NCBI GenBank assembly: GCA_030265395.1
Contig: JARFYF010000001.1
Coordinates: forward strand, 110,133,632 to 110,197,631
Reading direction: 5' to 3'
Source: Rhina ancylostomus
Taxonomy: Eukaryota
Length of the DNA: 64,000 bases
The notes under the pieces were generated by a model. The model was not told the origin of the DNA. It saw nothing but the letters and a program-made list of their open reading frames with translations, and made no database searches. Positions within the stretch are counted from its first letter, which is position 1. Each line of letters opens with the position of its first letter. Below are positions 9,281-14,990 of this stretch, piece by piece. The position numbers and the translations under genes were made by a program.

Positions 9281-9334
9281 GGTGACGAGGGCATTCCAGG
9301 AATACCAGGAGAACCGGGTTTTCCTGGTGATAAG
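9281..9334 (+). CDS. Collagen triple-helix exon GDEGIPGIPGEPGFPGDK (COL24A1/COL27A1-like)
   Basis: 54 nt, six perfect Gly-X-Y triplets, phase 0, flanked by tctag| and |gtgagt. Confidence 0.92.
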
Positions 9335-10099
9335 GTGAGTTTGTCAATGGTTTGGTAATGAGTTTCAATTTGATTAATTCAACCTATTTAATCCCCAGTT
9401 TATATCTGGTACTTAAAAAGCAAGCATTGATTTCAGTATAGGGTTTATACTGGTGTTAGTAGAACCTCTTTTTCATTAAGTATTTCCATCTTTTAGGTAC
9501 AGTACTTTCCTGTGCAAGTAAACTGTAGTGCCTTTTTTAAATGCCAGAATAATTCATCCCAAATACAAAGAAAATTGTGACCAAGTTTATTTCTAAATTT
9601 CTTTCCTTTAAAAATTAGTCATGATCTTGATAAATGAACCAAAATGTCAAGATGATAGTCCATATATAAATTCAAAATTCTTTTTTTAAAGTGTTGATGG
9701 TGCACGATTTACAGACACGAATACTGAGTTTCCCTGACACAATGAGGAAGATGCTGTTCGTCACTCAGAAGCTATAAAGAGTCAGGCTGGCAATCAGACA
9801 ATGTTACACAGCAGGCTGAATATTGGTTCTTAGCTATACAATCACTCTGTTCCATTAGGAACTTCAAATATACAAGAAAACCAACAGCTAAGTTTTGAAT
9901 CTGATAAGATAGATTTTGAATTTGTGCAGTGGTGTAAAATATGTGTCACCAAATCAGGAGCCTGTTTTATTTTATTTCAACTGGGCCCTATCCCATGTTT
10001 TACACTGTTGCACAATGTCAAGAACAAGCTGGTTCCATGTATGTTTTTTGTTCTTAGTATAAGGGTAAGAGGGTTCCAGGTGGTGCTGATAATGATATG

Positions 10100-10640
10100 G
10101 GGGTCATCAATAGCTAGGCCACATTTATTTCCCAACCCTAGTTGCCAAGAAAAGATAGAGGTGTCTCTCTTTAAACTGTTGAAGGGCTTGTAGTGAGAGT
10201 GGCATTGGGTAGCAAATCAGTGGCAACAAAGGAACAATAATAAATGTCCAAATCGATATGGTGAATGACTGAGGGAAATTTGGGTTGGTCTCACAACATT
10301 GCTGCTTGTATTCTTCTGTATGGTACTTGTTACAAGAGAAGGAGCTGTGTTGAAAATAACCTTAGTGAGCTGCAGCATTCATCCTCTAGCTTAAAGATGG
10401 GAGGGATGATGCTGAATCCATTGATAGAAACACACATCCATATTAATAAGGACTCTTTGCAGATGGGGGTAAGACTTTGATGGTTCAGAAAGTGAGTCAC
10501 TCATTGTAGGGTGTCCATTCGTCCTTCTGTTCTTATGGCCAAACCACCTCAGCTTCCAGTAACAGCAATGGTTATGTGGAAATCTCCTAGGCTTTCTCTT
10601 GTTTGAGTTGGCACAAATAATACCTGCCAGTTACTACCTT
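10100..10640 (-). mobile_element. Old degenerate LINE 3' fragment
   Basis: Resembles the reverse complement of the old LINE seen at 25.4-25.9 kb and 53.3-54.8 kb; boundaries approximate. Confidence 0.4.
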
Positions 10641-12664
10641 GGTGCTGTACAAAGCAAGAGTTGCTTCACTATTGGAAAAGTTATGGATGTATTTCTGGTT
10701 AAAGTGCTAAGATGGTTTTCATGATTTAGTATTAAATAATGAACAGGCATCACCATTATTAACTTCGAGCGATATTTATGAGCATCGGCCTCAAAGGGTT
10801 TTTCTGATCTTCCAACTTTGATCACGTGCTAGAATTTGTGAATGGGTGTATTGCTGGAATTCATTAATACTACAAGCCGTAACTACTCGTTTATATACCA
10901 CAGTTTCATACACACTATGTCAAAATATTAATAATTCACATAGATTAAGAAATGGTCAGTATTTATCACAAAAGGAGCTGCTTTTTGAATGAATGCCATG
11001 TGGACTCAATTTTTTGTTCAGACTATGAGTTGGATCCAAATTGAAAATGTCCTGCCTGATTATTTTTCTGTACATTATGTTCTTATAAAGAAGTTCTGAT
11101 ATTGATAAATTGATCTGACTTTGCAACTTTCATTTGGAGATGCCAGCTTTTCGTTGTAGTCAGCAAGAAATGTTCCATGAATTCATTTGTTGCAGATAGT
11201 TTATGCTCAATGTCAACCTTATTGTGCAAGTTTGTATATACTAAAAAAGCTTAAAAGTTATTAGCATTTAGGTGCAAGATCAGAAATGACATGTATAGTG
11301 TACAGGAAGGACAAAGATTTGGATTTTGACATGCAGTTTAGCACTTGGCTCTGAGGATACTGAAAATCTGCCTTATCATTCTCATTTGATGAAGGATTGT
11401 TTTAGTATTATGTGATGGCACAGGAAATATTAAAGCAAGCTTTGGATAAAGCTAATCCCAGAAGGCAAGTTATTATTTCAAGATGAATTGTTTTTTGTAA
11501 ATGTGCTGTCATTAATTTACTATATATAGTTACTGTGGGAGTATATCAAAAGCATTTACAAAACAATTTGAAACATTGGAACTTTAGTGAAGAAAACAAA
11601 ATGTACTGAAATTATTAGCGGTACATTTTCATCCCACTGCTTCAAAGGATTTTTTGCAGAGTGTGAATGAAAGATTTAGGTGACCACATGCCTTTAGTTC
11701 CAATAAGAATCCTTAACATGGGAAGTTGCTCTGCAGGAATGCTGAAAATTAAAATTAGCTGCTAGGCTTAAATTAATTTATTGCAGATGGTAAAATATAT
11801 TTTCACACCCAAACCACTAGCATGTGATCCACTCGGAGAATTGCTCCAATTCTGCTCAACATTACTTCTGGTACTTCAATTGTTGATATATTTAAATAAA
11901 TTGACTGCAGAAGGGGCTGTTGTTTGACCTTTTCACCATTTGTTCTCTGAAATCAGAATATTATTAGTTTAGTTTAAAAGAAGATGCAGTTAGACTAAGG
12001 TCCAACTAATAAAGGAAAATATACCTAAGCTTTGTTAATTAAAAGAAGTTCTGCCATTGTTGCTTGCACCAGGTAATTCAAGACACTTGTTTTGCATTTT
12101 ATGTTCTCTGATTGTGTTGAAACATCATTTGTATTCATGAAGCTGCAGAAAATTAAGTTACCTCCATGCTGATAAAACATGAAATCAAAGAGATCACTCA
12201 GATGTTCAGGCCTTCTTCATTTGTTCATGGATTATGACCAGTATGGCTATTCCCATTATCCCTCACTCCCCTGTGAATCAAACAGGCATATTAATATGCC
12301 ACAACTCCCAGACGTGTATCTGATGTTATTGATCCAATTTCTTATCAGTGGTATAATTTGACTCAGGAACAAGTAACAATAATGCATTCTATCCATTCAG
12401 TAACAACTAAAAGATATCTTCTAATTTTTTATCATGTTTGAGCATTGTAAATTTATATTAAAAATGTACCATTTACTGCTGTGATCAGTATTCAGGCAAA
12501 ATTATTTTAATGGTATTTCTTTCTGATTGCAAACTAGCCACTATATTGGAAATTAGTTTTGTGTACTTAATGATTATTGAGCAGAATGCTGCCATTGGTA
12601 GCACAAGTCATTAATGATAACTAAATTACTCTGAATCAGTAAATTTGCTGTTGTATCACTACAG

Positions 12665-12718
12665 GGTAATCCAGGATTACAGGGTTTGCCTGGAATGAGG
12701 GGGAAAATTGGGATAGCT
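12665..12718 (+). CDS. Collagen triple-helix exon GNPGLQGLPGMRGKIGIA
   Basis: 54 nt, six Gly-X-Y triplets, ctacag| acceptor and |gtgagt donor, phase 0. Confidence 0.92.
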
Positions 12719-14936
12719 GTGAGTATTTGATCATTTCTCATTCTTGCTATTCAGATGTGTATATCAGTTCTTACTGGTGATTTTTAAAAAAATATCACAG
12801 CCATTCAAAAATCTCAGCATTTGTTTGATGCAACTTTACATATACTTCAGGTTCATAACTTTGTAGAAGTGCTTGTTATTAGTAATTTCTACAGTCTTTG
12901 ATATGAATGTTTGATGTAATTACAATAAATTTTTATTTATGCTGATTTGAAGATTCAAATTAAAACAATCCCTAGTCCCAAAATTTATCTGCACAACATC
13001 TATTTTTTCAGGCATTATGGAGACAGAAAATCTCAGTACTGTAATGTTAAGCAATTTTCCATATATTTCTCAGAGAGTTAATGACAGCCATTAATATTGT
13101 CTGGACTTTCTGCTTCAAAATACTTTTGTACCTTAGTGCTGCCCAAGTGACGTGATGGTAGTGCAGCAACCAAAATTCACCTCCAGCAATACTTTCAACA
13201 ATATTGATCTGATGGCCGACCTGTCCATATGCTCACAGAGAAAGCAGCTTCTTGTTAACATTGAAACTCTATGGCTGTGCTTTTTAGAGAAATACTTGAC
13301 ACACAGTGGATAGCAAAATAATGGATGCTCATAATGAGTAAAATTCCAATGCATTGATCTGAACACGTTTCTACTGATATCATAGGCAGAGTGTTGCACA
13401 ATTCTCTGCATTACAAACCTTAAGTAAATTGATCCTAATTGAGATCCTGTTCACCAAGCACACCGCCAGGTGATTTCAGTAGATTCCTTCTCAAAATTTA
13501 GCTGCCAGGGAAATCCTGCAAATGGAGAGGTGATTTCATGTTCAATCGATTAGAAATGAGTAAAAAGCAGGAGAAAGACATTTGAGAAAAGAGGTGGCAC
13601 ACAACACCTTATCCGCCCAGGTTTCACAAAGACCCTCTCTTTTATCAACTCTCCTGATATTTTCATATATTGAAACATTGAAGGAAAACATTTGGAAGCT
13701 CGGGCCTATGCTGGCTCACAGCATCCCACCAATGCCATTTCCCACATATCTCTGCAATCTATCTTCTCACATTCCCATCACTTCAATCCTGTTCCTCCTA
13801 CCACCTACCACTCTAAAGATAATTAATGGTGGTCAATTACTCTGCCAGTCTCCATGCCTTTGGAAGATGTTTGCTGAGTCAAAGTCTTCCATAAGGTTGA
13901 CCCCATTCACAGCTGCTGGGCGTTGAGCCTGTTTAGCCAAAGAGAGAGGGGGACAGCAGTTTACAATCATCCAACAGGAATTGATTAGGGGGATTATAGG
14001 ATGTAGGTGGGCCATCAATACATGGTGCAATAATCTGCACACACTATGCGAGCCAGCAGCACTGCTTGTCCTGATCCACCCAGAATGCAGCTTGAGTAAA
14101 TGTTTATCTTATTGTACGCTTCACTTGGGGGGATGGGGCATGAGTGTGTAACCATTTGTGAATATTTGGACTGAAGAACCAAGAATGAAATAATAAATCA
14201 GTGCTCTTCAGAGCAATACAAAGCGGATTAGTGATGTATTCCAGTTTTATGTACTTACTTCATTAATTATAACATTAATCTTTGCATTAGAATTTTGTTC
14301 ATTTAAAACATACATTTTTCTTGCTTTTCCACAATGTGTCAGGTATTTCTCTCTTGGATGTAAAGACCAATTGCACTCTTTCTGTAATTCTGATCCTTCA
14401 CAAAATTTAAACCATGCTGGAGAGTATATATTTAAAATTCTATTGTACTCCACACAAACCTACTATGGTTGATGACTGTGGACAAAATGAACTTGTAAGT
14501 GGCCCAGATTTTGCAATTGTATTGATGATGAAGCTATTGCTGTTTGCTATCATTACACCTTGGAAGTGACAGTAACTCCAAGATTTCTGTTGTCAGTAAT
14601 TCATAAGCTGTTGTGTTTGTAGCCTTTTCCAACAGAATAAAGATACATCAGTTGAGTTAGTGTGAGGTTAAAATTCTTGCCAGCTAGTTTTGCTGAAAAA
14701 TACATTAAAATATTACAAAATAAAGACAGAAAACACTGGAAACACTCAGCAGACCAGGCAGTATCTGTGGAAAGACTGACAATTAATGATTCAAAGACCC
14801 TTTGTGAGCTCTAAAAACAGAAACATAGGGAACAAAGGCAAGGAAATTGTTATAACCACAAATTATTGGTTAGTTTCAGCTGAAATATCAGATATTGATG
14901 CACTTATTTAATTTGTTATTTACATTAACTTTTCAG

Positions 14937-14990
14937 GGAAAAATTGGTGACAAAGGTCCAGTTGGAATACCAGGACCCCCTGGCCTTGAG
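14937..14990 (+). CDS. Collagen triple-helix exon GKIGDKGPVGIPGPPGLE
   Basis: 54 nt, six Gly-X-Y triplets, aacttttcag| acceptor and |gtaagc donor, phase 0. Confidence 0.93.

What the first reader, a model, noticed from the sequence alone, without database searches (positions are those of the whole stretch)
9281..14990. Orphan clade-C collagen exons about 20 kb upstream of the otx2 promoters
Seen: three clean 54-bp Gly-X-Y exons on the same strand as otx2, and no further Gly-X-Y exon found by eye in the remaining 49 kb. A fibrillar collagen needs dozens more exons and a C-propeptide. Known: human OTX2 lies in a gene desert between TMEM260/PELI2 and EXOC5, and COL24A1 and COL27A1 are on other chromosomes. 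Inference: a scaffold mis-join is most likely; the alternatives are otx2 nested in a giant collagen intron, or a lineage-specific rearrangement that displaced the otx2 upstream enhancer desert.
Basis: partly seen in the sequence, partly recalled or inferred. Interest (0 to 1): 0.7.

Follow-up and report, generated by a model that had tools for sequence, protein, structure and literature searches.

The report
Stray collagen XXVII exons beside otx2
Three real collagen exons upstream of the brain gene otx2 in this shark-or-ray assembly fill a hole in the animal's collagen XXVII gene on another scaffold, and they most likely sit here through an assembly error rather than a real rearrangement.

Summary
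The three 54-bp Gly-X-Y exons are real, and no others lie within 200 kb. They are consecutive helix exons of col27a1. That gene lies on scaffold C56 and lacks these three between two located neighbours; col24a1 on C63 has its own copies of two of them. EXOC5, otx2 and a Pellino gene keep their usual order, so otx2 is not nested in a collagen. The foreign block is probably 8242-19354 (11.1 kb). It splits an old 28-bp tandem array (2557-8241, resuming in register at 19455), and contigs of three related organisms diverge from the window at both ends. Best reading: a false join of a col27a1 contig into the array (0.62; artefact of any kind about 0.75). A real insertion, as a cut or a collapsed copy, is not excluded (about 0.2), because no read or contig was shown to link the block to C56 or to cross 8242 in this species. 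Low interest unless the junction proves real.

The parts
9281..9334 (+). col27a1 helix exon, slot 13 of the P0046 reference (54 bp, phase 0)
   Evidence: missing on C56 after the exon at 15,703,548
12665..12718 (+). col27a1 helix exon, slot 14 (54 bp); placed by its order between the other two, its own score is weak (45)
14937..14990 (+). col27a1 helix exon, slot 15 (54 bp); next exon lies on C56 at 15,724,415
8242..19354 (+). Inferred foreign block (11,113 bp) of col27a1 intron and exon DNA; single copy where searched
   Evidence: relatives' contigs start matching at 8242/8256 and stop at 19343/19354 with 393-403 and 759-1288 unlaid letters; no repeat unit inside; no second copy
2557..8241 (+). 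Left part of an old, decayed 28-bp tandem array, interrupted by LINE fragments; ends abruptly at the block
19355..19454 (.). 100-N stretch at the right end of the block; flanks do not overlap; no listed contig bridges it
19455..20110 (+). Right part of the same array; starts at unit position 7, within one base of where the left part stops
22582..22840 (+). Four weak unit-like remnants, a hint that the array went on beyond the 20197 N stretch
   Evidence: scores 8-11; weak
39573..39669 (+). otx2 coding exon 1 (end inferred)
40158..40309 (+). otx2 coding exon 2 (homeodomain)
40944..41567 (+). otx2 coding exon 3 (TF_Otx domain, stop)

Best explanation
The three exons are the col27a1 exons missing from that gene on scaffold C56, and an 11-kb contig carrying them was most likely joined by mistake into a decayed 28-bp repeat array upstream of otx2. 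Shown: the exons, the matching hole on C56, the conserved EXOC5-otx2-Pellino order, the split array, and the divergence of relatives' contigs at both block ends. Inferred: the array broke into two contigs at 8241/19455; its free end was merged without a gap to the free start of the collagen contig through the short shared motif TCTGTGAC; scaffolding then put the rest of the array and otx2 behind a 100-N gap and left a 100-N gap at C56:15,707,330. In the animal the exons would splice into an ordinary collagen XXVII chain and would have no link to otx2.
For: C56 holds 11 of the 16 N-terminal helix slots of P0046. Slots 13-15 are missing between 15,703,548 and 15,724,415, and the window supplies those three in order. 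col24a1 on C63 has its own slot 13 and 15 exons, only 35/54 and 36/54 bases alike to the window's. Only two clade-C C-propeptide sets appear among 40 COLFI matches. Of four 100-N gaps in the C56 interval, two have overlapping flanks (14 and 23 bp) and one reads through a LINE; only 15,707,330 is unexplained. The block ends exactly at a gap, and the array resumes exactly at the gap's far edge, in register: a false join predicts this, a real move needs coincidence. Depth in run X1 is not doubled: long contigs read 5.5-7.2 inside and 5.6-9.5 outside; the bin ratio inside to outside is 1.2 against 1.4 in relative X2. Other collagen exons look scattered too: three clade-C propeptide exons lie on C66, C94 and C63. 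The assembly has 288 gaps in 1.14 Mb sampled. An 87-residue helix deletion in collagen XXVII kills homozygous mice (PMC3242791, abstract), which argues against a fixed excision.
Against: The left join has no N (contig 3393-19354), and the shared motif is only 8 bp, short for an assembler to merge without read pairs. No contig or read was shown to link the block to C56. Whether the same organism's run X1 crosses 8242 is unknown, since only its 8 longest pieces were listed. The loose ends have other readings: a deletion of 400 bp or more in this species on the left, and a gap of more than 1.3 kb on the right. Two other single exons (slots 5 and 10) are also unlocated on C56, so absence there is weaker evidence than a perfect complement would be. 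GC and CpG do not tell C56 from C1. The register match has about a 3-in-28 chance.
Confidence: 0.62

Rival explanations
1. Plain scaffold misplacement of a larger piece. The repeat array is native to col27a1 introns, and everything from about 12.4 kb upstream of the window to 19354, 20196 or 26309 belongs on C56, mis-joined at an N stretch. The break at 8242 would then be a species-specific deletion or a local rearrangement inside col27a1.
For: The gap 12.5 kb upstream of the window and the gap at 19355 are both 100 N without flank overlap. CpG jumps from about 5 to 27 per kb only after 26544. No listed contig bridges 20197 or 26310. No gap-free chimera is needed.
Against: It needs one locus-specific array on both sides of three ancient exons, a separate lesion exactly at the array's edge, a hidden gap above 1.3 kb at 19355 and a false link further right. 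No repeat unit was found in C56 loci L133-L136, and no 10-kb locus among 73 scanned held more than 2.
Confidence: 0.13
2. Real cut-and-paste. An 11-kb block was excised from col27a1 and inserted into the array about 20 kb upstream of otx2 by microhomology-mediated repair, in this animal (perhaps heterozygous) or its lineage. That would leave an in-frame collagen XXVII chain shorter by 54 residues (18 triplets).
For: Gap-free left junction with an 8-bp shared motif; array split in register; derived state against three relatives; single-copy depth fits a move; three phase-0 54-bp exons can be lost without breaking frame or register.
Against: Both the right junction and the C56 scar would have to fall in or at assembly gaps by chance. 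Splice sites and frames show no decay. Homozygous helix deletion is lethal in mouse (PMC3242791, abstract).
Confidence: 0.13
3. Recent duplication collapsed by the assembler. col27a1 is intact on C56, a near-identical copy of the block was pasted into the array, and the assembly kept one copy and placed it here.
For: It explains the gap-free junction, the C56 gap and the intact exons together.
Against: No doubled depth in X1, and 0 differences in its five long pieces over the block; no second copy found. It survives only if the copy is polymorphic and X1 is another individual.
Confidence: 0.07
4. otx2 nested in a giant collagen intron, or a relic of a third clade-C collagen on the otx2 chromosome.
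For: Same strand as otx2; only 200-240 kb on each side were scanned for small exons.
Against: None of the COLFI matches on C1 is near the window (two clade-A-like genes at 52 Mb only). EXOC5 and Pellino exons flank the locus. The exons fill the C56 hole. Jawed vertebrates have two clade-C genes (PMC8887668, passages).
Confidence: 0.02

Closest known systems
COL27A1 (collagen XXVII alpha 1, clade C fibrillar collagen; references P0046, P0041, P0016, P0020)
   Same: Exon sizes 54-54-54 between a 45-bp and a 54-bp exon, same order, 9-13 of 18 residues identical per exon to fish COL27A1b; the rest of the gene is on C56, on the scaffold that also holds a COL5A1-like gene (that label is recalled).
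   Different: Only three exons are here, on another scaffold. No full-length cartilaginous-fish COL27A1 came back for a direct comparison.
COL24A1 (P0006; own gene on C63, 1.87-2.08 Mb)
   Same: Homologous helix positions 716-769, 32 of 54 residues identical.
   Different: C63 already has its slot 13 and 15 exons; its DNA is 0.49 GC against 0.37 for the block.
EXOC5-OTX2 conserved interval
   Same: EXOC5 upstream on the same strand, as described for human, mouse, chicken and pig (PMC13389317, passages); a Pellino gene downstream on the opposite strand.
   Different: An 11-kb collagen block sits inside it in this assembly; the TMEM260 N-terminal exons map to C50, not here.
Chimeric contig in a short-read assembly raised to chromosome scale (general knowledge; RaGOO and related papers seen as search listing only)
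   Same: Many 100-N and 10-N gaps, exons of one gene on several scaffolds, block ending at a gap.
   Different: One junction is gap-free with only an 8-bp shared motif; the assembler and scaffolder are not known.

Membership tests
Fibrillar collagen helix exons | Phase-0 exons of 54 or 45 bp with unbroken Gly-X-Y and AG/GT ends | tested here: met
   3 of 3 exons
COL27A1 | Exons occupy consecutive clade-C helix positions | tested here: met
   best chain at P0006 716, P0041 790, P0025 461; slots 13-15 of P0046
COL27A1 | Complement the genome's COL27A1 rather than its COL24A1 | tested here: met
   missing on C56, equivalents of two present on C63; the C56 N-terminal exon's named best hits are COL27A1
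COL27A1 | Orthology from the 54 residues alone | tested here: inconclusive
   exon 1 scores highest on COL24A1 P0006 (78), exon 3 on COL27A1 (73-78)
COL27A1 | Spliced to the C56 exons in a transcript | not testable with these tools
   no RNA holder listed
Complete collagen gene at this locus | N-terminal LamG/TSPN exon, about 60 helix exons and COLFI domain in cis | tested here: not met
   no further exon in 464 kb; no COLFI match near the window
Recent segmental duplication | Second copy in the assembly or doubled depth | tested here: not met
   (3.0 and 0.85 kb of the block searched); X1 may not be the source individual
Retrocopy | Introns lost | tested here: not met
   introns of 3.3 and 2.2 kb kept
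Assembly chimera | No raw read or independent contig of the species crosses the junction | tested here: inconclusive
   none of 32 listed pieces bridges 19355; X1 pieces near 8242 not listed
OTX2 | Otx homeodomain, TF_Otx domain, EXOC5 upstream | tested here: met

The most novel reading that the evidence does not exclude
A real interchromosomal cut-and-paste moved three coding exons out of col27a1 into the otx2 upstream desert. This fish would then make a collagen XXVII helix 54 residues shorter, in frame, and carry 11 kb of foreign DNA between otx2 and its distal enhancers.
Probability: 0.13. Interest if true: 0.62.

Novelty: not a real feature. Interest (0 to 1): 0.17.

Why it matters
If it is an artefact, it matters only as a correction: col27a1 is wrongly short on C56, the EXOC5-otx2 interval is wrongly long by about 11 kb, and false joins in this assembly can lie inside gap-free sequence. 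If real, it would be a natural in-frame helix deletion in a cartilage collagen of a cartilaginous fish, a lesion that is lethal in mice at 87 residues (PMC3242791, abstract), together with an insertion into a conserved developmental regulatory interval. Both halves could be tested by two PCRs.

Tried and rejected
Overlap between C1 gap flanks and C56 gap flanks: only repeat-family matches. Continuation of the repeat at the C56 left flank after a C1 gap: none found. Inverted-arm link between the C56 left flank and the decayed element at 8242: score 53 against a shuffle mean of 53.5, rejected. The block's last 25 bases score joint highest (3 of 721 gap flanks) against the C56 right flank, but the test was chosen after seeing the likeness, so it is not counted. 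GC and CpG do not separate C56 from C1. A codon pattern for the slot 5 exon found only the C63 copy. Positions 8044-8241 as a recent duplication of array units: no near-identical copy. Otx-type TAATCY sites are not clearly enriched in the array (14 in 5.7 kb and 3 in 0.66 kb, against 19 in 11.1 kb). No RNA holder listed. No full-length cartilaginous-fish COL24A1 or COL27A1 came back. The skate Otx2 enhancer paper is not held, so enhancers could not be placed; PMC9081933 passages gave no positions. No paper holds otx2, col27a1 and shark together. No earlier finding near this place, on look-alike DNA or with these words.
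Full report
Observation. The strict pattern occurs 3 times in the window, 0 times in 440 kb of flanking DNA, and once in 200 shuffles. A looser scan of 200 kb on each side found no further spliceable collagen exon. The downstream gene is otx2 by homeodomain, TF_Otx domain and neighbours.

Which collagen. Scored exon by exon at consecutive positions, the three fit one place in clade-C chains: P0006 (COL24A1) 716-769, 174 against 133 for the next best; P0041 (COL27A1b), 174 against 131. 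The 54 residues alone do not separate the two genes. The genome does. It holds two clade-C genes: one on C56 (15.56-15.90 Mb), whose N-terminal exon has COL27A1 proteins as its best named hits, and one on C63 (1.87-2.08 Mb), the best match of COL24A1. Jawed vertebrates have just these two (PMC8887668, passages). Against the first 16 helix slots of P0046, C56 has 11 and lacks 5, 10, 13, 14 and 15. The window holds 13, 14 and 15, in order, between C56 exons at 15,703,548 and 15,724,415. C63 has its own 13 and 15, about 65% alike in DNA to the window's; its slot 14 was not found. Slots 5 and 10 of C56 remain unlocated. From slot 16 on, C56 exons run in order to the C-propeptide.

Neighbourhood. 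Sec10 (EXOC5) exons lie on C1 at 109.906-109.927 Mb, + strand, about 207 kb before the window, and Pellino exons at 110.44-110.49 Mb, minus strand. EXOC5 upstream of OTX2 is the described order (PMC13389317, passages). The only COLFI matches on C1 are at 52 Mb. So otx2 is not nested and its desert is not displaced.

Where the foreign DNA begins and ends. I first took the whole piece between the 100-N gaps 12.5 kb upstream and at 19355 to be misplaced. Two results changed that. First, a decayed 28-bp tandem array fills 2557-8241 and again 19455-20110, same strand, with no unit in between. It was found nowhere else in the genome by one DNA search that scored 2 candidates, and no 10-kb locus among 73 scanned held more than 2 units. 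The right part starts at unit position 7, within one base of where the left part stops. Second, contigs of three related organisms from three studies (X2, X3, X6; about 2%, 5% and 5% different) match the block but start at 8242, 8256 and 8242 with 401, 393 and 403 unlaid letters, and stop at 19354, 19343 and 19343 with 1003, 759 and 1288 unlaid letters (the direction of record coordinates is inferred from records 19 and 28). Depth in bin 19340-20006 shows that these do not run onto the DNA after the gap: X6 4.27 against 13.2 expected, X3 0.2 against 3.5, and X2 5.41, fully explained by a different contig. The block is therefore most likely 8242-19354. Its left join is inside a gap-free contig, at an 8-bp motif that the repeat unit and the block's start share.

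Artefact or real. For an artefact: the block ends exactly at a gap and the array resumes exactly after it; the C56 interval has one 100-N gap, of four, whose flanks neither overlap nor read through; depth in the same organism's run X1 is single-copy; the exons show no decay; three clade-C propeptide exons lie singly on C66, C94 and C63, and one clade-B exon on C64 matches a hole on C68; gaps are dense, 288 in 1.14 Mb, 104 of them 100 N; an 87-residue helix deletion is lethal in homozygous mice (PMC3242791, abstract). Against it: the left join has no gap; 8 bp is little for a false merge; 39 of 88 gaps of 100 N have no flank overlap, so the C56 gap is not unusual; the loose ends could reflect a deletion in this species and a long hidden gap; X1 may be the source sample and its pieces near 8242 were not among the 8 listed. 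The direct link from the block to C56 was not obtained. Three sequence tests for such a link gave nothing usable. N stretches in the window may be gaps or withheld letters, so the tie of the array to otx2 across 20197 and 26310 is not proven; four weak unit-like remnants near 22.6-22.8 kb support the first.

Verdict. Gap-free false join of an 11-kb col27a1 contig, 0.62; larger misplaced piece, 0.13; real cut-and-paste, 0.13; collapsed recent copy, 0.07; nested gene or third paralogue, 0.02. The exons belong to a known gene, and the adjacency is probably not a real feature. No paper with otx2, col27a1 and shark together was found in the one search made for it; some searches were for background. 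The skate enhancer paper is not held. No supplements were read. Four earlier notes gave a label, a precedent or a test idea; their own claims were not checked, and the two tests they prompted were negative. Interest 0.17.

Noticed in passing
A real difference in gene order or a misplacement; the rest of the gene was not traced.
   Followed up: partly
G000:C66:10,787,591; C94:654,478; C63:2,080,767 (L060, L055, L057): COL24A1-like C-propeptide exons lie singly on three scaffolds; the C66 exon sits in a 2.4-kb contig richer in GC (0.47) than its flanks (0.44).
   Followed up: partly
G000:C64:13,411,831 and C68:11.79 Mb (L061, L062, L010): A lone clade-B propeptide exon on C64 covers the profile part (43-82) that the clade-B gene on C68 lacks; probably another displaced contig.
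   Followed up: partly
window 2557-8241 and 19455-20110: An old, locus-specific 28-bp minisatellite of about 90 recognisable units, 20-37 kb upstream of the otx2 start codon; the right part is 97.7% alike in relative X2. No clear excess of Otx-type sites.
   Followed up: partly
G000:C1:51.89-52.03 Mb (L004, L005, L007, L009): A tail-to-tail pair of clade-A collagens (COL3A1 and COL5A2 by recalled arrangement) is on the same 145-Mb scaffold as otx2; these are on different chromosomes in human (recalled), so C1 may be a fused chromosome or a joined scaffold.
   Followed up: no
G000:C2:39.79-40.01 Mb (L071, L072, L078-L080, L082, L087, L088): A cluster of at least five single-exon collagen-like open frames of 617-638 residues within about 210 kb; not identified.
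   Followed up: no
window 26545-50000: CpG-rich domain around otx2 (about 31 CpG per kb against about 5 upstream), starting abruptly after the N stretch at 26310-26544.
   Followed up: no
G000:C56:15,629,083-15,645,326 and 15,670,998-15,701,539: Two further col27a1 helix exons (54 and 45 bp) were not found; both intervals hold N stretches long enough to hide them.
   Followed up: partly
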